A stretch of 39,284 nt of DNA from an uncultured Candidatus Saccharibacteria bacterium (GTDB lineage: Bacteria > Patescibacteriota > Minisyncoccia > Minisyncoccales > CAZPAG01). The stretch spans positions 6,127 through 45,410 of the forward strand of contig CAZPAG010000007.1 of NCBI GenBank assembly GCA_964584545.1, read 5' to 3'. The first letter of the stretch is position 1, and each line of letters opens with the position of its first letter. Shown here in pieces: positions 1,778 through 7,021 of the stretch. The position numbers were made by a program, and so were the translations under genes. Under the pieces are notes generated by a model. That model was given only the letters and a program-made list of their open reading frames with translations, did not search any database and was not told where the DNA came from.

Positions 1778-2476
1778 CTATGCAACAGCATTAACGAAGG
1801 GGGATAACTCCCCGAAGGTTTGCTCACGGAGGCCGTGCATGCGACACACGGCAATCGCCCATTCAACGTCCTCTCGTCTGCCACCATATTGTTCATCCCA
1901 GACAATTTTTATCAAAGGGCTGTGGTCTTCCGGGAACTCGAGGCTTTTTTCTGCCAATTCCTTGCCGGATATACCTCCTCTTCTGGGCAATTTTCCTAAG
2001 AGGGAGAGAAAGAAATGGGCCATTTTAGAAACGACGAAAACTCCTGCAGGGCCTTGTTCGTCAGCGTCAAGTTGTTTGTACAGGAACAGATTTCCTATAT
2101 AACCTTTCTCAACGTAGAAGGGAGCAATCTGTTTTATCGTCGCTATTGGCATGCGCGGATGGTCGAGGTTGGAGAACCGGATAAATCGTGGCAGTTGTTG
2201 ACGCAAGAGGAAAGAGTGAATGTCTTCCGGGGTAATTTCGGAATCTCGGACCAATCCTCCTGGCGTATGATATTGCGCGGTGCTGAGCGAAGCATTGCTG
2301 TCCATAACATAGCCGACGGTTTTTGAAACAGTGCCAGTTTCTGGCATCTCCCAGTGAGCATTAAGAGTGCCACATGCGTGGAGCCATGGCTCGGGAGTAA
2401 GTCTGATAAGGTCGAGCACGAGCTTTCTCGATTTCTCTTCGTTACAGTGGATTCTAAAGAACAACATATTTTCCAT
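1778..2476 (-). CDS. Hypothetical protein (232 aa), GC-rich, likely foreign
   Basis: Long ORF. I place the start at the ATG at 2476 (MENMLFF...) because AAGGAGG lies 8 nt upstream. The TTG at 2494 in the ORF track lies just upstream of that Shine-Dalgarno motif, which then falls inside the extended reading frame. No family recognised. Confidence 0.65.
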   Translation of the reverse strand: MENMLFFRIHCNEEKSRKLVLDLIRLTPEPWLHACGTLNAHWEMPETGTVSKTVGYVMDSNASLSTAQYHTPGGLVRDSEITPEDIHSFLLRQQLPRFIRFSNLDHPRMPIATIKQIAPFYVEKGYIGNLFLYKQLDADEQGPAGVFVVSKMAHFFLSLLGKLPRRGGISGKELAEKSLEFPEDHSPLIKIVWDEQYGGRREDVEWAIAVCRMHGLREQTFGELSPFVNAVA

Positions 2477-2590
2477 TTGCAAATCCTCCTTCAAATGGTT
2501 GTTTATTTAATTCAAACTACCATTAAATAGATAAACGTCAAGCTTTCTCGCCATTAGGGGTGTTTTTGTTTTGGCTAATTCTCGGAATGA

Positions 2591-2672
2591 TTCCAACGTC
2601 GTCCTAGGCCCCTCTGACTTGCGTAATTCAAAAATCGCCACTTTGACGTTTTTTTGATAGAATAAAATATAT
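2591..2672 (+). repeat. Intergenic junction module, copy 1 (ttccaacgtcgtcc...aaaatcgcc...T-run...TGATAGAAT)
   Basis: Aligns by eye with 4612-4684. Shared blocks: ttccaac[g/a]tcgtcc, aaaatcgc, acg[t/g]tttttt, g[a/g]tagaata. Confidence 0.7.
2655..2663 (+). promoter_or_regulatory. Extended -10 promoter element TGATAGAAT
   Basis: TGnTAnAAT-type motif directly after a T-run. The same arrangement recurs at 4391, 4666, 7168 and 17986. Confidence 0.45.
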
Positions 2673-2679
2673 ACCACAC

Positions 2680-3141
2680 ATTCACGATTTAATAGATTTT
2701 GTAGTTGAGGCCTTTATTATCCAGGAAAATAGAGTACTTTTAATACGCCACAAGAAACTTGATAAGTGGTTACCAGTTGGCGGACATATTGAATTAGACG
2801 AGGACCCAGAAGAGGCTTTGCTTAGAGAAGTTAAAGAAGAGTGTGGCTTAGAGATAGAAGTTTTGGGCAAAAAGCCCGCAATTGAATCTGAAGGAACAAA
2901 ATTTTTATATACACCGTCGTTTTTAGATATCCACAAAATTTCAGAAACCCATAAACATATTGGGTTTGTGTATTTTGCAAAAGCTAAATCAAATAAGTTT
3001 ACATTTAATAGAGAAGAGCACAAAAGCATAAGATGGTTTAGTGAAGCAGACTTACAGAAACCCGAATTTAATCTTAGCTCAGCTGTTAGATTTTATAGCA
3101 GGGAAGCCCAAAACAGCCCGAATTTCCCCTTAGAAGCTTAG
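2680..3141 (+). CDS. NUDIX hydrolase; start codon unresolved (no ATG/GTG/TTG upstream of the NUDIX box)
   Basis: NUDIX box GGHIELDEDPEEALLREVKEECGL. The frame is open from 2647. The first canonical start is the TTG at 2818, which lies inside the box. The ATT at 2680 is only a guess. Confidence 0.6.
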   Translation: MHDLIDFVVEAFIIQENRVLLIRHKKLDKWLPVGGHIELDEDPEEALLREVKEECGLEIEVLGKKPAIESEGTKFLYTPSFLDIHKISETHKHIGFVYFAKAKSNKFTFNREEHKSIRWFSEADLQKPEFNLSSAVRFYSREAQNSPNFPLEA

Positions 3142-3165
3142 TTCTGGACCAGGGGTCACAGCAAG
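3101..3165 (+). repeat. Direct repeat B, copy 1
   Basis: gggaagcccaaaacagccc (19/19 identical to 4294-4312), followed by a related tail (gttctggaccaggggtcacagc vs gttcagaactgaggtacacagc). Overlaps the 3' end of the NUDIX ORF. Confidence 0.75.
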
Positions 3166-3168
3166 CAA

Positions 3169-3648
3169 ATGAATTTAAGTAAAATTAATTACAAATTAAT
3201 AGGACGTCTTAGGAATCTTGCTAAAACTTGTCTTGATAACGGTGACTATCTTGGATCATTTTTGTTAAAATTTATTTTATTAGAAGGAACGGTTGCGCAT
3301 ATAGTTGCTATGAGAGTCACTGATAAGCCCCAAGCAGACAATGATACAATTTCTAAATTCGAGCAAAGCCATCATTTTATAAATCTGATAGACTATTTCT
3401 ATCTTCTCACAAGCGATATAAAAGCATATAAGGAATTAGGGGAACTAAATAAAAGGAGGAACAAAATCGTTCATGAAATATTTGAATATCAAACCTACGA
3501 TCAAATTCTTCAGGAAGCCAGAGAATTATCTTTAAAAATTGAAGGATTAGATCAGTACCTCCTCAATACTTACTGGCCAAAAGCCAAAGATAGCGAACCA
3601 AAAATTAATCCCCCAACCGAGACGCCTAAGATAATTAATATCGGATAA
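3169..3648 (+). CDS. HEPN-like protein (putative RNase, Rx4H motif)
   Basis: 159-aa, largely helical-looking sequence with NKRRNKIVHE (R-N-x3-H, the HEPN catalytic signature) in the C-terminal half. Assignment rests on this motif only. Confidence 0.45.
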   Translation: MNLSKINYKLIGRLRNLAKTCLDNGDYLGSFLLKFILLEGTVAHIVAMRVTDKPQADNDTISKFEQSHHFINLIDYFYLLTSDIKAYKELGELNKRRNKIVHEIFEYQTYDQILQEARELSLKIEGLDQYLLNTYWPKAKDSEPKINPPTETPKIINIG

Positions 3649-3662
3649 ATTCATATAAACGT

Positions 3663-4256
3663 ATGTCATCATTAGCCATTAAGTTTTTCGCTCCCATTAT
3701 CGAACCAACTGCTAATGCGTTAATGAAAGTTTTGGACGACGCCATAAATGAAGGAATTAAAGAAATAATTTTATTAATATCCACTCCGGGTGGTAGTGTT
3801 TTCCACGGCATTAGTATTTATAATTATTTAAAAGGTTTACCGTTCGATAAAGTCACTACTCATAATTTTGGAAGCGTCGATTCTATCGGCGTAGTGATTT
3901 ACTGTGCCGGGAAACAGCGCTTCTCTTCTCCACAGGCCCGCTTTCTTATACATGGCGTATCAGCAAATTTTCCTCAACCCATAAGTCTTGAAGAACCACA
4001 ATTAAACGAAAGATTAAAGGGAATTAAAATCGACATTGAGAATATCGCAAAGGTTATCGCTGAGAATAGTGGTAAGACCGTAGAGGATGTGACAAAGGCC
4101 ATGCTTGAGAGGACAACCTTGAATCCGACGCAGGCGAAAGAGTGGGGATTGGTCCACGAAATTAAATCCGAAGTTTTTCCCGTTGGGACCCAGATCGTTT
4201 CAATAACAGCACCAGAGATTCCATTTAATCCTCCAAACCCACGCGCTTCGAGTTAA
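3663..4256 (+). CDS. ClpP/crotonase-fold serine protease (SDH / S14-S49-like)
   Basis: ISTPGGSV, GSVDSIG (candidate nucleophile Ser) and FLIHGV (candidate His) match the ClpP-fold motif order. 197 aa. Starts 14 nt after the HEPN-like gene. Confidence 0.7.
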   Translation: MSSLAIKFFAPIIEPTANALMKVLDDAINEGIKEIILLISTPGGSVFHGISIYNYLKGLPFDKVTTHNFGSVDSIGVVIYCAGKQRFSSPQARFLIHGVSANFPQPISLEEPQLNERLKGIKIDIENIAKVIAENSGKTVEDVTKAMLERTTLNPTQAKEWGLVHEIKSEVFPVGTQIVSITAPEIPFNPPNPRASS

Positions 4257-4293
4257 AATTTGACGACAAACCCTTTGACCGAGACGCATCACT

Positions 4294-4357
4294 GGGAAGC
4301 CCAAAACAGCCCTAATTTTTTCCTTAAAACTGGGGTTCAGAACTGAGGTACACAGCT
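4294..4357 (+). repeat. Direct repeat B, copy 2
   Basis: See 3101-3165. Lies 38 nt after the stop of the ClpP-fold gene. Confidence 0.75.
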
Positions 4358-4433: not shown

Positions 4434-4583
4434 ATGCAAGGGAATGATATCTGTTTAAACTGTGCTCTCAATGATCCAGAAAAAACGCATTGTAATGAAT
4501 GTATGATGAGGTATGTGCTTCAGGATAAAGAAAAGGAATCAAACGAAGAAATTATCCTCCAGCAAGAGGCCGCGCAGTTGTAA
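4434..4583 (+). CDS. Small CxxC...CxxC zinc-ribbon protein (49 aa); absent from the ORF track
   Basis: ATG preceded by AAGGAGAG. Translation: MQGNDICLNCALNDPEKTHCNECMMRYVLQDKEKESNEEIILQQEAAQL. The terminator overlaps the stop codon. Confidence 0.55.
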   Translation: MQGNDICLNCALNDPEKTHCNECMMRYVLQDKEKESNEEIILQQEAAQL

Positions 4584-4603
4584 AAAGCGGCCTTTTATTT
4601 TTT
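4567..4603 (+). terminator. Rho-independent terminator
   Basis: Stem aggccgc/gcggcct followed by ttttattttttt. Confidence 0.75.
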
Positions 4604-4813: not shown

Positions 4814-5290
4814 ATGAAAACTAACCATAAAATCATAATTGGCGATTCGCGTAATATGGCGGAATTACAAAATAAATCCGTTCATCTTGTCATCACTTCG
4901 CCACCATATTGGCAATTAAAAGATTACGGAACTTCGGACCAAATTGGTTTTAATGATAGCTACGAGGATTACATCAACAATCTTAATTTAGTTTGGAAAG
5001 AATGTCTTAGAGTGTTAAATGATGGTTGCCGTCTTTGTATAAATATTGGTGATCAATTTGCTCGTTCAGTTTATTATGGCCGTTATAAAATTATTCCTAT
5101 TCGAACGGAAATAATAAAATTTTGCGAAACCATAGGATTTGATTATATGGGTGCGATTATTTGGCAAAAAGCTACAACGATGAATACTACCGGTGGAGCG
5201 ACCATAATGGGTAGTTTTCCTTATCCAAGAAATGGAATAATCAAATTTAGCAAAACAATAAATCTTGATTTTCAATATAATACTCTATAA
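4814..5290 (+). pseudogene. Truncated beta-class N4/N6 DNA methyltransferase (motif IV TSPPY present, SAM-binding motif I region missing)
   Basis: VHLVITSPPYW, RLCINIGD and IIWQK...GSFPYPRNG are typical of the N6_N4_Mtase family. The ORF ends at 158 aa, before the expected C-terminal FxGxG module. Its last 44 nt overlap the convergent 335-aa gene. Confidence 0.7.
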
Positions 5291-6254
5291 TCATAAAATT
5301 GTATTTTTTAAGATTAGAAATTTTAGCTATACTTTTTTGAAAATAATCCCCAAGATATTTTTTAAGACGAATATTATTTTCATCTTTTAGAACAATTAAG
5401 AAAAAATTCATTTGCGTTTGATTTGTTTCAAGGCGATCGGAGTACAGAGAATATGTACAATATTTAACAATTTCCTTCTCAATTGCAGGAATCATACTTT
5501 TTTCTAACCCTGTTTTTTTAAGTTCAAGTACATTTGTATTATCTTTATTAAAAATTATAATATCAGAAGGATAGGCGTTGCCAAAAATAAATTGGTTGTA
5601 AATAGTTGAATAATTTAGTTCGTTTTTGGGATGAGTATTTAAAATATTATTTAGGCTATTATAAGTAACATCTTTTTGGCTTTTCAGGCAAAGGATGATA
5701 AATGCCTCTAAATCACTTTCGGAAGAAAAAAATAGTTTTTTGTATAATTTATTTTTGTCGGCAATGAATTTTTGATCGACTTTTAACTTATCGTGTTCTG
5801 GGATGTAATCTTTGTTATTTATCGATTCAGAATTATTCCCATAATTTTTTATAGTATCTAATATAAATTCACCCTCTTGCTTATTAAGACATATTGAATG
5901 CAAATGTTTATTTTGTTGTAATAAGCATATAAGATTAAAAGCAAAATCTCTTTTTTCAGAACCTATTCCATTTAAGTAAATATCTGTTTCGTTAATATAT
6001 TGTAATTTATCATATTCAATTTTAATCCTATAATAATACTTTTGACTTGGAAATATTATCTTTTTATCATAAAATAAAGTTTCTGTAACTTTAAATGGTC
6101 CATAAATGTTTTGCGATTTATAATTAAATTGTGAAATAAAAACAAAATCTCCAATTTCAATATTAGCAAGCCAGTTTGAACTAGTGGCTCCATAAATACC
6201 GTTCTCAATACATTCATTAGCAAATTTGACAGTTGTAAGAATATAATATCTCAT
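5247..6254 (-). CDS. Candidate modification-dependent (Type IV-like) nuclease: N-terminal PUA/EVE-like domain + C-terminal PD-(D/E)xK motif
   Basis: N-terminus MRYYILTT...IEIGDFVFISQ...IYGPFKVTE resembles EVE/PUA-like readers. C-terminus has PSDIIIF-x8-VLELKK (D...ExK). Very AT-rich (15 G/C in 5941-6000). Confidence 0.4.
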   Translation of the reverse strand: MRYYILTTVKFANECIENGIYGATSSNWLANIEIGDFVFISQFNYKSQNIYGPFKVTETLFYDKKIIFPSQKYYYRIKIEYDKLQYINETDIYLNGIGSEKRDFAFNLICLLQQNKHLHSICLNKQEGEFILDTIKNYGNNSESINNKDYIPEHDKLKVDQKFIADKNKLYKKLFFSSESDLEAFIILCLKSQKDVTYNSLNNILNTHPKNELNYSTIYNQFIFGNAYPSDIIIFNKDNTNVLELKKTGLEKSMIPAIEKEIVKYCTYSLYSDRLETNQTQMNFFLIVLKDENNIRLKKYLGDYFQKSIAKISNLKKYNFMIIEYYIENQDLLFC

Positions 6255-6301
6255 GCTATTATACTAGCGAGAGATATTATATTCGTCTAGTAAAATAAAT
6301 T

Positions 6302-6514
6302 ATGAAGAAAATCTTAAACCGACAATTTATTAAAAATAATGAAAGTCTTTTTATTCTTCATGATAAATTTTCTTTTTGGGATTTTTTTAAAATTCTAAGA
6401 AGGAGTAATTATGAGTCAGAACAAGCCTTAAATTTCATTTTCGCAAACTGTTCTTTAAGTGCCATTGTGTTTCAAGAATGTATCATAAACAATAGATATA
6501 AAAAATTAAGCTAA
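6302..6514 (+). CDS. Hypothetical 70-aa ORF; probably the 5' part of a gene interrupted by an in-frame TAA
   Basis: Same reading frame as 6635..7021. Only the single TAA at 6512-6514 separates the two open stretches. Confidence 0.35.
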   Translation: MKKILNRQFIKNNESLFILHDKFSFWDFFKILRRSNYESEQALNFIFANCSLSAIVFQECIINNRYKKLS

Positions 6515-6634
6515 AAATTTTATTTAGACAAAGCCTATCCAAAGCAGCATCTTGAGCAAATTGGAAAAACTTTATTTATTAAGGTTACTGATGTTTGTAA
6601 AGCCGAAATAGAAGATGTTACAGAAGAAGATTGT

Positions 6635-7021
6635 ATGAATTTCATATACAATTTGGTAATAAATAGAACTTTCGACGGTTATCAGTCAGAAATTCAGACA
6701 ATTTATGGACAACTTGAAAAAATTCTTGGAGTTAAAATCGAGCCCGCTCCCGATGAATGGGACAGAGGATATAATGTCGACTATTTCATTAAAATTCACG
6801 AGAAATATATCGGACTTCAAATAAAACCGGCAGGATTTGAATATATTACGCAAATAATCAATGAGAGAGAACAGCAGAAAAAGACGCACGAAAAATTTAC
6901 TACAAAATATGGCGGCAAAGTATTTTATATTATTTCAATAACCGAAGGTAAAAATAAGATTATTCATAATCCCGAAGTTATTGATGAAATTAAAAATGAG
7001 ATAAATAGATTGAGAAAATAA
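6635..7021 (+). CDS. Small PD-(D/E)xK-like nuclease domain protein (possible restriction endonuclease remnant)
   Basis: GYNVDYFIKIHEKYIGLQIKP fits a D...(E/Q)xK nuclease core. The frame is open for 40 codons upstream, back to the TAA at 6512. Confidence 0.4.
   Translation: MNFIYNLVINRTFDGYQSEIQTIYGQLEKILGVKIEPAPDEWDRGYNVDYFIKIHEKYIGLQIKPAGFEYITQIINEREQQKKTHEKFTTKYGGKVFYIISITEGKNKIIHNPEVIDEIKNEINRLRK

What the first reader, a model, noticed from the sequence alone, without database searches (positions are those of the whole stretch)
3101..4357. Two-gene HEPN-like + ClpP-fold serine protease module precisely bracketed by ~65-bp direct repeats
- **HEPN-like gene:** the 159-aa ORF carries an R-N-x3-H motif (RRNKIVHE), typical of HEPN RNases.
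- **Protease gene:** 14 nt downstream lies a 197-aa ClpP/S49-fold protease with candidate Ser (GSVDSIG) and His (LIHGV).
- **Flanking repeats:** the pair is flanked by direct repeats sharing a 19/19 identical core, gggaagcccaaaacagccc (3101-3119 and 4294-4312), plus a related ~45-nt tail.
- **Hypothesis:** an RNase effector paired with a protease, inside a defence-rich island and with cassette-like boundaries, suggests a toxin/activator or abortive-infection pair. For example, the protease could license or remove an inhibitor of the HEPN nuclease. I do not recognise it as a named defence system.
Basis: partly seen in the sequence, partly recalled or inferred. Interest (0 to 1): 0.65.

Follow-up and report, generated by a model that had tools for sequence, protein, structure and literature searches.

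The report
HEPN RNase gene beside short ClpP
A small toxin-type RNase gene (HEPN fold) and an unusual short ClpP-like protease gene sit together as a 1.2-kb inserted block in a Patescibacteria-like genome; both gene calls hold up, but the idea that they form one defence or toxin-control system rests on a single further example.

Summary
ORFs, motifs, the 14-nt spacing and the flanking direct repeat (19/19 core, 24/25 over 25 nt, weaker ~45-nt tail) are all present.

- **Gene 1** belongs to a small, unannotated HEPN family. R97 and H102 are its only invariant residues, and N98 is nearly invariant. Other members sit mostly at the 3' end of restriction-modification operons.
- **Gene 2** is a short ClpP paralog with no N-terminal docking loops. 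It has Ser74 and His97, with invariant Arg150 where ClpP has Asp. Its closest solved relative is PpClpP1 (9UXT). The family is 60-90% identical across bacteria and archaea, usually lies among housekeeping genes, and is not a phage clade.
- **Repeat copy 1** is the 3' end of an upstream NUDIX ORF. Copy 2 reads as a second NUDIX 3' end that diverged by synonymous changes, so it looks like an insertion scar.
- **Pairing:** 1 of 8 other HEPN-family contexts has a ClpP-like gene directly downstream, only 33% identical to this one. None of 84 other protease loci has this HEPN.

I put a functional toxin-plus-protease module at about 0.4 and independent neighbours at about 0.4. The gene identities are secure and the system is unproven. 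The nearby restriction-modification genes are broken fragments.

The parts
2647..3141 (+). NUDIX hydrolase ORF. The frame is open from 2647, but the first ATG/GTG/TTG is at 2818, inside the Nudix box. Its last 14 codons are repeat copy 1.
   Evidence: Pfam NUDIX 7.5e-07. Frame and missing start read directly. GC3 0.297 against 0.407+-0.043 for core genes.
3101..3165 (+). Direct repeat copy 1: 19-nt exact core, 25 nt at 24/25, then a weaker tail. It covers the end of the NUDIX coding sequence and the 24 nt before the HEPN start region.
3169..3648 (+). 159-aa standalone HEPN-superfamily protein, a predicted metal-independent RNase of toxin or abortive-infection type.
   Evidence: - Only R97 and H102 are invariant in the family; N98 is nearly invariant, and an E/D sits in helix 2.
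- Pfam HEPN_Cthe2314 1.1e-3 and RiboL-PSP-HEPN 5.3e-3. AbiV 0.079. PADLOC CARF_HEPN 0.0076.
- AF2 pLDDT 89.5, all helical.
- PDB matches include HEPN structures 2q00, 1ylm, 7bxo/6m6u (HepT), 9oij (HepS), 4nqf, 1wol and 3o10, but all at E >= 0.1.
3457..3474 (+). Codons for R97-N98-K-I-V-H102, the Rx4H catalytic motif of the HEPN protein.
   Evidence: Read from the sequence. Invariance.
3663..4256 (+). 197-aa short ClpP-like serine protease (MEROPS S14 fold). Ser74 at 3882-3884, His97 at 3951-3953, and invariant Arg150 where ClpP has Asp. It lacks the N-terminal axial loops.
   Evidence: - Pfam CLP_protease 8.9e-23, 81.5 bits against a 20.2 cut-off.
- Far below every NCBIfam ClpP equivalog cut-off.
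- Family alignment A1.
- Closest solved structure is 9UXT PpClpP1: sequence profile E 6e-25, Foldseek E 1e-18, TM 0.83/0.89.
- AF2 pLDDT 86.7.
4294..4357 (+). Direct repeat copy 2. It is non-coding here but reads WEAQNSPNFFLKTGVQN* in the register of copy 1, so it is a likely relic of a displaced or second NUDIX 3' end.

Best explanation
**What it is (shown)**
- A 1.19-kb two-gene block lies at the 3' end of a NUDIX ORF, in a compositionally mosaic variable region. That region runs from about 1.1 to 7.1 kb, next to tRNA-Gln, in a genome I infer to be Patescibacteria-like.
- Gene 1 encodes a standalone HEPN RNase of a small, unannotated family.
- Gene 2 encodes a short ClpP paralog of the PpClpP1 type.
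- The flanking repeat is a recombination scar. Copy 1 is the present NUDIX 3' end. Copy 2 is the 3' end of another NUDIX allele that diverged under coding constraint.

**How it most likely works (inferred, not shown)**
- The two genes are co-transcribed.
- The HEPN protein is a growth-arresting RNase that cuts RNA through its R97/N98/H102 site.
- The co-encoded self-compartmentalised protease has no docking loops for an AAA+ unfoldase. It keeps the RNase level low by degrading it, for example through its disordered C-terminal tail (residues ~140-159).
- When proteolysis is blocked or saturated, by phage infection or proteotoxic stress, the RNase accumulates and shuts down translation.
- This is a type VI-like toxin-antitoxin logic in which the module carries its own protease.
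For: **Gene identities**
- See the parts list.

**Operon-like layout**
- Same strand, 14-nt gap, and no terminator-like or promoter-like site between the genes.

**Moved or kept as a unit**
- The repeat brackets exactly these two genes.
- The first differences between the copies are synonymous: CCG/CCT, TTC/TTT, TTA/CTT.

**Recurrence**
- P0123 is the second-closest HEPN homologue (42% identity). It is followed after 4 nt by a 190-aa short ClpP-like gene in an unrelated neighbourhood, L098.
- That protease is only 33% identical to the window's, whereas the window's family stays above 60% across phyla.
- So the two pairs were probably not inherited as one unit. That makes two independent juxtapositions likely.
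- My estimate is that ClpP-fold genes make up about 0.2% of genes. On that basis, one further hit in 8 contexts has a chance of about 0.016.

**Pattern in candidate-phyla-radiation (CPR) relatives**
- The same protease is tightly linked to small, variable partner genes.
- One partner family, with an N-terminal transmembrane helix, appears in three lineages on either side of the protease (L011, L014, L015; 38-57% identity).
- Other membrane proteins fill this position in L007 and L009/L010.
- In the window the HEPN gene occupies that slot.

**C-terminal tails**
- Members P0124 and P0125, which sit beside restriction-modification genes, carry a C-terminal coiled coil, as does P0126 (context unknown). 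The protease-linked members have short basic or disordered tails (pLDDT about 62-65 for the last 20 residues).

**Precedents**
- Neutralising a toxin by proteolysis has a precedent in SocAB with ClpXP (PMC8832971).
- PpClpP1 is a tetradecamer with a widened pore and does not bind ClpX (PMC12900304).
Against: - None of 84 other loci of this protease family has a neighbour of this HEPN family (hmmsearch).
- In Dehalococcoidia the protease sits in a conserved housekeeping neighbourhood with LigA, TrmO, Pth and GNAT acetyltransferases. The family is therefore not a dedicated defence or toxin-antitoxin component.
- Seven of 9 HEPN-family contexts lack a ClpP-like gene. Five are beside restriction-modification genes. 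One sits with a minimal-nucleotidyltransferase-like gene and a second HEPN gene.
- The closest homologue (P0122, 56% identity) has no protease in the 1.6 kb downstream.
- GC3 differs: HEPN 0.281, protease 0.379, core genes 0.407+-0.043. This hints at different histories, although the difference is only about 2 standard errors.
- In L098 every gene, including the protease, has its own promoter-like motif. Adjacency there need not mean an operon.
- There is no PADLOC hit.
- Nothing here tests toxicity, RNase activity, proteolysis of the HEPN protein or co-transcription.
Confidence: 0.4

Rival explanations
1. **Independent neighbours.** The protease is a resident, housekeeping-type ClpP paralog. 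The HEPN gene is a solo or orphaned defence-island RNase, of a family that normally guards restriction-modification systems in the manner of PrrC. It happens to lie next to the protease, and the two proteins do not act on each other.
For: - Housekeeping contexts, and 0 of 84 protease loci with this HEPN.
- Five of 9 HEPN-family contexts are beside restriction-modification genes. This matches the R-M linkage of at least 16 HEPN clades described in PMC3710099.
- The protease has genome-like GC3, while HEPN and NUDIX are AT-rich like the neighbouring restriction-modification fragments.
- Most genes in this genome are closely packed, so a 14-nt gap is weak evidence for an operon.
Against: - A second HEPN/ClpP-like juxtaposition exists with a different protease lineage. 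I estimate its chance at about 0.016.
- The repeat brackets both genes together.
- An unregulated HEPN RNase normally needs a neutralising partner. No intact restriction-modification system, minimal nucleotidyltransferase or small antitoxin ORF is adjacent here.
Confidence: 0.4
2. **Activation model.** The protease licenses the nuclease. It either removes an inhibitory segment of the HEPN protein or destroys an unidentified inhibitor when triggered, so the protease acts as sensor or activator and not as antitoxin.
For: - It rests on the same linkage evidence as the best explanation.
- Protease-triggered effectors exist in other defence systems (my own knowledge: CalpL in type III CRISPR, Craspase).
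- The HEPN protein has a low-confidence C-terminal tail that could be clipped.
Against: - No inhibitor gene lies in the block.
- The protease has no sensor domain. It is a bare 197-aa ClpP fold.
- A constitutively assembled barrel protease fits poorly as a switch.
- It carries the same weak synteny statistics as the best explanation.
Confidence: 0.1
3. **Mobile cassette.** The block is a small element moved in trans by site-specific recombination, and the repeats are attL/attR sites. It would resemble an integrase-less element that rebuilds the 3' end of its target gene.
For: - An exact 19-nt core is followed by diverged arms on one side only.
- The insertion rebuilds the 3' end of a protein-coding gene.
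- The location is a variable region next to a tRNA gene.
Against: - No integrase or transposase domain was found in the ORFs of 1-9 kb.
- The core 19-mer was found nowhere else in the JGI metagenome contigs, apart from two unrelated high-GC chance hits.
- The repeats show no attC-like or other structure (z-scores -0.2 to 0.5).
- Nucleotide homology to relatives is confined to the protease coding sequence.
- The synonymous-change pattern is equally explained by recombination with a related genome that carried NUDIX followed by these genes.
- This rival concerns how the block arrived, not what it does. It is compatible with any of the functional readings.
Confidence: 0.25
4. **Phage remnant.** The protease is a prophage head-maturation (prohead) protease, and the block is a decayed prophage fragment.
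For: The best PHROG hits are head-maturation protease families (phrog_94, 1.8e-26). NCBIfam phage ClpP-like models hit at 1e-13 to 1e-16.
Against: - Those hits reflect the shared ClpP fold and lie far below the cut-offs (50.7 against 120 bits; 60.9 against 475).
- No capsid, portal or terminase genes are nearby.
- IMG/VR contains only 33-38% identical relatives.
- The family has more than 2400 cellular members at 60-90% identity, in housekeeping contexts.
Confidence: 0.02

Closest known systems
HEPN superfamily standalone RNases linked to restriction-modification systems (PrrC/RloC-type logic; the Pfam families HEPN_Cthe2314 and RiboL-PSP-HEPN, and AbiV, are the nearest profiles)
   Same: - It has the Rx4H motif with Asn after Arg, an acidic residue in helix 2, and a small all-helical domain.
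- Relatives sit at the 3' end of type I, II and III restriction-modification operons and in toxin-antitoxin or abortive-infection islands.
   Different: - No Pfam, NCBIfam or PADLOC HEPN model reaches its cut-off.
- The window copy is not attached to an intact restriction-modification system.
- It has Ala, not K/R, at the +4 position of the Ex3[KR] motif.
- The family is tiny (19 representatives at 50% clustering). The members that carry a source name are from Patescibacteria or Paceibacterota.
PpClpP1 of Pseudomonas plecoglossicida (PDB 9UXT), a divergent N-terminally truncated ClpP paralog
   Same: - It is the best sequence and structure match.
- It shares the short N-terminus without ClpX-docking loops, the Ser/His positions (S73/H96 there, S74/H97 here), and the loss of the catalytic Asp (PMC12900304).
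   Different: - Foldseek reports only 28% identity over the structural alignment.
- The third triad position is an invariant Arg here and Pro there.
- The window's family is a separate, extremely conserved clade spread over CPR bacteria, Chloroflexota, Desulfobacterota and archaea.
- Whether it forms mixed rings with a canonical ClpP in its host is unknown.
Type VI toxin-antitoxin system SocAB (toxin removed by ClpXP through an adaptor antitoxin)
   Same: The proposed logic is the same: the toxin is held in check by continuous proteolysis rather than by a binding antitoxin (PMC8832971).
   Different: - Here the module would encode the protease itself and no adaptor.
- The toxin would be an RNase, not a replication inhibitor.
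- None of this has been tested. It is an analogy, not a membership claim.
HEPN-MNT (HepT-MntA) type VII toxin-antitoxin pairs
   Same: Both have a small HEPN toxin in a two-gene module. HepT structures are among the structural matches (7bxo TM 0.49/0.58). One relative (L137) lies near a minimal-nucleotidyltransferase-like gene and a second HEPN gene.
   Different: The window has no nucleotidyltransferase gene. The partner is a protease, and the gene order is HEPN first.

Membership tests
HEPN superfamily | Rx4-6H motif with a polar residue (N/D/H) after the Arg | tested here: met
   R97 and H102 are the only invariant columns among 19 homologues, and N98 is conserved at 90% or more. The definition is from PMC3710099.
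HEPN superfamily | Conserved acidic residue in helix 2, typically as Ex3[K/R] | tested here: met
   The column of E39 holds E or D in all 19 sequences, and most distant members have R at +4. The window protein itself has Ala at +4. Proximity of E39 to the active site in the model could not be measured.
HEPN superfamily | All-alpha four-helix up-and-down bundle that resembles solved HEPN domains | tested here: inconclusive
   The AF2 model is all helical (pLDDT 89.5, pTM 0.81). HEPN structures are among its Foldseek matches (2q00 prob 0.99, 1ylm, 7bxo, 6m6u, 9oij, 4nqf, 1wol, 3o10). However, the best E-value is 0.1 and TM-scores are 0.4-0.58.
HEPN superfamily | Profile match to a curated HEPN family above its cut-off | tested here: not met
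   HEPN_Cthe2314 19.5 bits against 27.1. RiboL-PSP-HEPN 17.1 against 28.4. AbiV 13.3 against 27. Only 3 of 19 members hit each family.
HEPN superfamily | Metal-independent RNase activity | not testable with these tools
   This needs biochemistry.
ClpP / peptidase S14 | Profile match to the CLP_protease domain | tested here: met
   81.5 bits against a 20.2 cut-off, E 8.9e-23. Foldseek TM 0.7-0.89 to many ClpP structures.
ClpP / peptidase S14 | Ser-His-Asp catalytic triad | tested here: not met
   Ser74 and His97 are invariant. The position aligned to the third triad residue (Pro151 of 9UXT) is an invariant Arg150. The family is therefore at most a Ser-His dyad enzyme.
ClpP / peptidase S14 | Canonical ClpP orthology, with the N-terminal axial loops that dock ClpX/ClpA | tested here: not met
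   Every NCBIfam ClpP model is far below its cut-off (for example TIGR00493 47 against 308.6 bits). Matches start at model positions 48-59. The protein aligns from its residue 8 to residue 30 of canonical ClpP chains.
ClpP / peptidase S14 | Double-heptamer barrel assembly | not testable with these tools
   The nearest solved relative, 9UXT, is a homotetradecamer. No multimer prediction was available.
Phage head-maturation (prohead) ClpP-like protease | Passes the family model cut-off and lies in a phage structural gene module | tested here: not met
   NF045542 50.7 against 120 bits. No phage structural genes are nearby. Viral contigs hold only 33-38% identical relatives.
Two-gene toxin-antitoxin or abortive-infection module | Conserved adjacency of the two families across unrelated genomes | tested here: inconclusive
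   HEPN-family contexts with a ClpP-like gene downstream: 2 of 9, counting the window. Protease-family loci with this HEPN: 0 of 84.
Two-gene toxin-antitoxin or abortive-infection module | Toxicity of one component neutralised by the other; phage protection | not testable with these tools
   This needs expression and phage-challenge experiments.
Known anti-phage systems (PADLOC-DB 2.0) | Match to a system component model | tested here: not met
   The HEPN protein gives only CARF_HEPN at E 0.0076. The protease gives no hit. The L098 pair gives no hit.
PrrC-like guard of a restriction-modification system | Encoded within or directly after an intact restriction-modification operon | tested here: not met
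   The nearest restriction-modification genes start 1.2 kb downstream and are truncated (methyltransferase 2-152 of 423; endonuclease 71-194 of 197). The feature is met for relatives P0124, P0127, P0143 and P0144, and in divergent orientation for P0125.
Integron cassette or site-specific integrative element | Recombinase gene and structured att/attC sites | tested here: not met
   No recombinase domain in the ORFs of 1-9 kb. The repeats fold no better than shuffles. The core is not found at other sites.

The most novel reading that the evidence does not exclude
A new kind of toxin control. A HEPN RNase toxin would have, as its 'antitoxin', a dedicated ClpP-like barrel protease that needs no unfoldase and is encoded in the same operon. 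This would be one instance of a wider pattern in CPR bacteria, where the conserved short ClpP pairs with interchangeable small effector-like partners: membrane proteins in L007, L009-L011, L014 and L015, and HEPN here and in L098.
Probability: 0.25. Interest if true: 0.7.

Novelty: new member of a known kind. Interest (0 to 1): 0.4.

Why it matters
- **If the coupling is real**, it adds a proteolysis-based way of holding a HEPN RNase in check. It would also give a first functional handle on a very conserved but uncharacterised short ClpP family found from CPR bacteria to archaea.
- **If the coupling is not real**, the result is still useful annotation:
  - a new restriction-modification-associated HEPN family, apparently centred on Patescibacteria;
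  - recognition that the 'ClpP' here is a PpClpP1-type paralog with Arg in place of the catalytic Asp;
  - a clean example of an insertion that rebuilt the 3' end of its target gene.

Tried and rejected
- **Structured RNA in the repeats:** folding either strand of both copies gave z-scores between -0.2 and 0.5. Rfam found nothing in the region. Rejected.
- **Promoter or terminator role for the repeats:** the consensus scans were at background level.
- **Widespread mobile-element end:** the 19-mer hit only two unrelated high-GC contigs in the JGI metagenome contigs. No 'empty site' was recovered.
- **Conserved flanks around the protease in relatives:** nucleotide homology stops at the coding-sequence borders, window 3662-4229.
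- **Word-indexed protein search with the HEPN protein alone:** it found only the query itself. Relatives came from the exhaustive HMMER search.
- **Phage or plasmid origin:**
  - the HEPN protein has no relative in IMG/VR contigs or plasmids, and its model has no structural match among predicted viral protein structures (BFVD);
  - the protease reaches at most 38% identity in IMG/VR and 32% on plasmids;
  - the one plasmid context I inspected is a phage-plasmid lysis region with no bearing on this case.
no such NCBIfam hit appeared.
- **Missing Shine-Dalgarno as a sign of foreign origin:** most genes in this genome lack one.
Full report
**1.

The + strand carries a 159-aa ORF (3169-3648) and a 197-aa ORF (3663-4256), separated by 14 nt.

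The 19-mer GGGAAGCCCAAAACAGCCC occurs exactly twice in the 39-kb window, at 3101 and 4294, even when 3 mismatches are allowed. Shuffles predict 0.03 copies. The repeat finder extends the match to 24/25 over 25 nt.

The following ~45 nt are similar but only modestly so. The local alignment score was reached by 64 of 5000 shuffles and by 73 of 5000 random genomic 60-mers. The sequences upstream of the two cores are unrelated.

**2. What the repeat is**

Copy 1 is not intergenic. It is the last 14 codons of an upstream NUDIX ORF (Pfam NUDIX 7.5e-07), reading ..REAQNSPNFPLEA*. Copy 2, read in the same register, gives WEAQNSPNFFLKTGVQN*.

The first differences after the identical stretch are synonymous: CCG/CCT Pro, TTC/TTT Phe, TTA/CTT Leu. 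That pattern is expected if the two copies are 3' ends of two NUDIX alleles that diverged while both were coding. It is not expected from a local duplication that then drifted.

The simplest reading is that a block came in by recombination and supplied a new 3' end for NUDIX, pushing the old 3' end 1,193 bp downstream. Two routes fit:
- a site-specific event at the 19-nt core;
- homology-facilitated illegitimate recombination with a relative that carried NUDIX followed by these genes.

I could not tell these apart. No recombinase domain is present in the ORFs of 1-9 kb. The core is not found elsewhere in JGI metagenome contigs, apart from two unrelated high-GC chance hits. The repeats have no RNA or DNA structure beyond shuffles and no promoter or terminator signal above background. 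No 'empty site' was recovered.

**3. Gene 1 is a HEPN protein**

- The word-indexed search found only the protein itself, on 10 contigs of the same organism.
- The exhaustive HMMER search of 1.84 billion representatives found 19 relatives at E <= 0.001.
- In their alignment the only invariant columns are R97 and H102, with N98 at 90% or more. This is the Rx4H motif with the polar residue after Arg that defines the HEPN active site (definition in PMC3710099).
- The helix-2 acidic residue is E or D in all 19 sequences, and most distant members show Ex3R. The window protein has Ala at +4.
- Curated HEPN profiles hit only below their cut-offs: HEPN_Cthe2314 1.1e-3, RiboL-PSP-HEPN 5.3e-3, AbiV 0.079, PADLOC CARF_HEPN 0.0076.
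- An AF2 model built on the alignment is confident (pLDDT 89.5, pTM 0.81) and all helical, with a low-confidence tail after residue ~140.
- Foldseek against the PDB gives no significant E-value (best 0.1). Even so, HEPN proteins recur among the matches: 2q00, YutE 1ylm, HepT 7bxo/6m6u, HepS 9oij, 4nqf, 1wol, sacsin 3o10.

I accept HEPN superfamily membership on the motif evidence. The fold evidence is consistent but not decisive.

**4. Gene 2 is a short, non-canonical ClpP paralog, not a phage protease**

- It passes Pfam CLP_protease (81.5 bits) but falls far short of every NCBIfam ClpP equivalog and of the phage ClpP-like models.
- More than 2400 homologues exist at E <= 1e-10, and the best 120 are 63-91% identical. 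Genome hits span Wolfebacteria, Yanofskybacteria, Peribacteria, Dehalococcoidia, Thermodesulfobacteriota, Actinomycetota, Clostridia, Nitrospirota, and archaea (Methanophagales, Thermoplasmatales, Halobacteria, Bathyarchaeota) at 59-75% identity.
- The alignment has invariant THNFGSVDSIG (Ser74) and RFLxHGV (His97).
- The closest solved structure by sequence profile (E 6e-25, against about 1e-12 for canonical ClpPs) and by fold (E 1e-18, TM 0.83/0.89) is PpClpP1 (9UXT).
- PpClpP1 is described as a divergent paralog. It lacks the N-terminal ClpX-docking loops, has a Ser-His-Pro 'triad' and a widened axial pore, and works in mixed rings with canonical ClpP (PMC12900304).
- In the window's family the residue aligned to that Pro, and to the Asp of ClpP, is an invariant Arg150.
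- IMG/VR holds only 33-38% identical relatives and plasmids at most 32%. The prophage head-protease reading is rejected.

**5. Are the two genes a system?**

*From the protease side.* An HMM of the HEPN family finds no neighbour in 84 other protease loci.
- In Dehalococcoidia the protease lies in a conserved housekeeping neighbourhood. TrmO is directly upstream in 15 loci and LigA is upstream on the opposite strand in 20. GNAT acetyltransferases or a multi-pass membrane protein lie downstream, and Pth and a NUDIX gene sit a few kb away.
- In CPR relatives the context changes from genome to genome, but the protease is usually tightly joined to a small unannotated gene.
- One such partner family has an N-terminal transmembrane helix and occurs on either side of the protease in L011, L014 and L015 (38-57% identity).
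- Other membrane proteins take this place in L007 and L009/L010.

*From the HEPN side.* I obtained nine distinct contexts, including the window.

| HEPN member (identity to window) | Locus | Context |
|---|---|---|
| window | - | NUDIX, HEPN, short ClpP-like |
| P0123 (42%) | L098 | radical SAM, HEPN, 4 nt, 190-aa ClpP-like, serpin |
| P0122 (56%) | L097 | no protease in 1.6 kb downstream; only 129 nt upstream available |
| P0124 | L101 | methyltransferase, HNH, HEPN (contig ends) |
| P0125 | L102 | next to a divergent MmeI-type enzyme, in an island with AbiEii, HicA and NYN genes |
| P0127 | L104 | methyltransferase, AAA_15, ResIII, HEPN, then Mrr |
| P0143 | L093 | methyltransferase, ResIII, HEPN, serine recombinase |
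| P0144 | L095 | HsdS, AAA_15, HsdR, HEPN |
| P0128 | L137 | next to a second RNxxxH protein, near a minimal-nucleotidyltransferase-like gene |

The family's main association is therefore with restriction-modification systems. This matches the PrrC-type 'second line' arrangement proposed for many HEPN clades.

*The L098 case matters.* Its protease is only 33% identical to the window's, although it is closer to this family (110 bits) than canonical ClpP is.
- The window's protease family evolves very slowly and the HEPN family evolves fast. A pair inherited together should therefore show the protease more conserved than the HEPN, and the reverse is seen.
- Two independent juxtapositions are thus likely.
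- Given the window's pair, I estimate the chance of finding a ClpP-fold gene directly downstream in one of 8 further contexts at about 0.016. This assumes ClpP-fold genes make up about 0.2% of genes.

*Counterpoints.*
- In L098 every gene, including the protease, is preceded by its own ~30-nt promoter-like motif.
- In the window, the HEPN GC3 (0.281) is atypical while the protease GC3 (0.379) is genome-like (core genes 0.407+-0.043).

**6. Mechanism**

*Shown:* the gene identities, the catalytic-type residues, the operon-like spacing, the insertion scar and one recurrence.

*Inferred:* the HEPN protein is a growth-arresting RNase. In this lineage it is held in check by the co-encoded barrel protease, which has no unfoldase-docking loops. 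The protease would degrade it, perhaps through its disordered C-terminal tail. Loss or saturation of proteolysis would release the RNase.

This resembles type VI toxin-antitoxin logic (SocAB with ClpXP), except that the protease is built into the module. I give it 0.4.

The main rival, at 0.4, is that the two genes are independent neighbours: a housekeeping-type ClpP paralog and an orphaned restriction-modification-type HEPN gene.

**7. Surroundings**

The block lies in a mosaic region between tRNA-Gln (1023-1094) and core genes that start near 7.2 kb. GC ranges from 0.50 to 0.25 across it.

The 'defence island' is mostly wreckage:
- the methyltransferase ORF covers residues 2-152 of a 423-residue model;
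- the MjaI-type endonuclease ORF covers 71-194 of 197;
- an unannotated 335-aa ORF of 25% GC lies between them on the opposite strand.

The NUDIX ORF itself has no canonical start codon before the Nudix box.

**8. Verdict**

Its system hypothesis is neither refuted nor established. The finding is best filed as a new member of the HEPN superfamily next to a PpClpP1-type ClpP paralog. There is a modest but real hint of functional linkage, which is worth a genome-wide neighbour census and a simple toxicity-rescue experiment.

Noticed in passing
window 4814-7021: A MjaI-like type II restriction-modification system is broken. The methyltransferase ORF 4814-5290 matches only residues 2-152 of a 423-aa model, and the endonuclease ORF 6635-7021 only 71-194 of 197. 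Between them lies a 335-aa ORF on the minus strand (5247-6254) with GC 25%, GC3 0.185 and no family hit. It probably replaced the middle of the system.
   Followed up: partly
window 2647-2818: The NUDIX reading frame is open from 2647 but has no ATG, GTG or TTG until 2818, which lies inside the Nudix box (GGHIELDEDPEEALLREVKEECG). The gene either uses a non-canonical start or is a pseudogene.
   Followed up: partly
L098 1-10453 (locus of HEPN homologue P0123): At least nine consecutive genes are each preceded by a conserved ~30-nt motif, CAAAAGGTCAAAAATTAATTGAAAAATAAAAA(T)ATG, at a fixed distance from the start codon, and several intergenic gaps are exactly 57 nt. It looks like a genome-wide promoter, possibly for leaderless mRNAs. 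A weaker copy lies inside the 3' end of the HEPN gene, just before the protease start.
   Followed up: partly
L011 5423-5998, L014 (ORF just downstream of the protease), L015 (ORF upstream of the protease): A conserved, unannotated protein family with an N-terminal transmembrane helix (motifs RDAAxLILQEIRxAE and PTNSWNxNxH; 38-57% identity) lies next to the short ClpP in three CPR lineages, on either side of it. L007 and L009/L010 have other membrane proteins in that position.
   Followed up: partly
L029, L033, L038, L041, L058, L067, L068, L082 (Dehalococcoidia loci), and L007 7512-8594: A ~390-aa protein follows the protease in about 10 loci, including one CPR locus where the source annotation calls it DUF8173. 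It has an N-terminal membrane anchor, a repetitive G-D-rich middle part and four C-terminal membrane helices. This may be a conserved functional partner of this ClpP family.
   Followed up: no
L033, L038, L039, L041-L043, L051, L058, L082, L091: A NUDIX gene (29-39% identical to the window's) lies about 3-5 kb upstream of the protease in ten Dehalococcoidia loci. A NUDIX ORF is also the immediate upstream neighbour of the block in the window. This may be coincidence.
   Followed up: no
L137 4118-6220: The HEPN homologue P0128 is followed, with a 4-nt overlap, by a 172-aa protein that carries its own RNNVAH motif. A 163-aa protein with a nucleotidyltransferase-like GS...DxD motif lies upstream. 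Together they look like a HEPN/HEPN/minimal-nucleotidyltransferase cluster.
   Followed up: partly
window, all genes: Most genes in the window have no Shine-Dalgarno sequence. The two ORFs with a strong one (1248-1553 and the 49-aa ORF near 4435-4584) both lie in the variable region.
   Followed up: no
window 1778-2494 (minus strand): A 238-aa ORF has GC 0.48 and GC3 0.515, well above the genome, and no family match. It is another foreign piece of the mosaic region next to tRNA-Gln.
   Followed up: no
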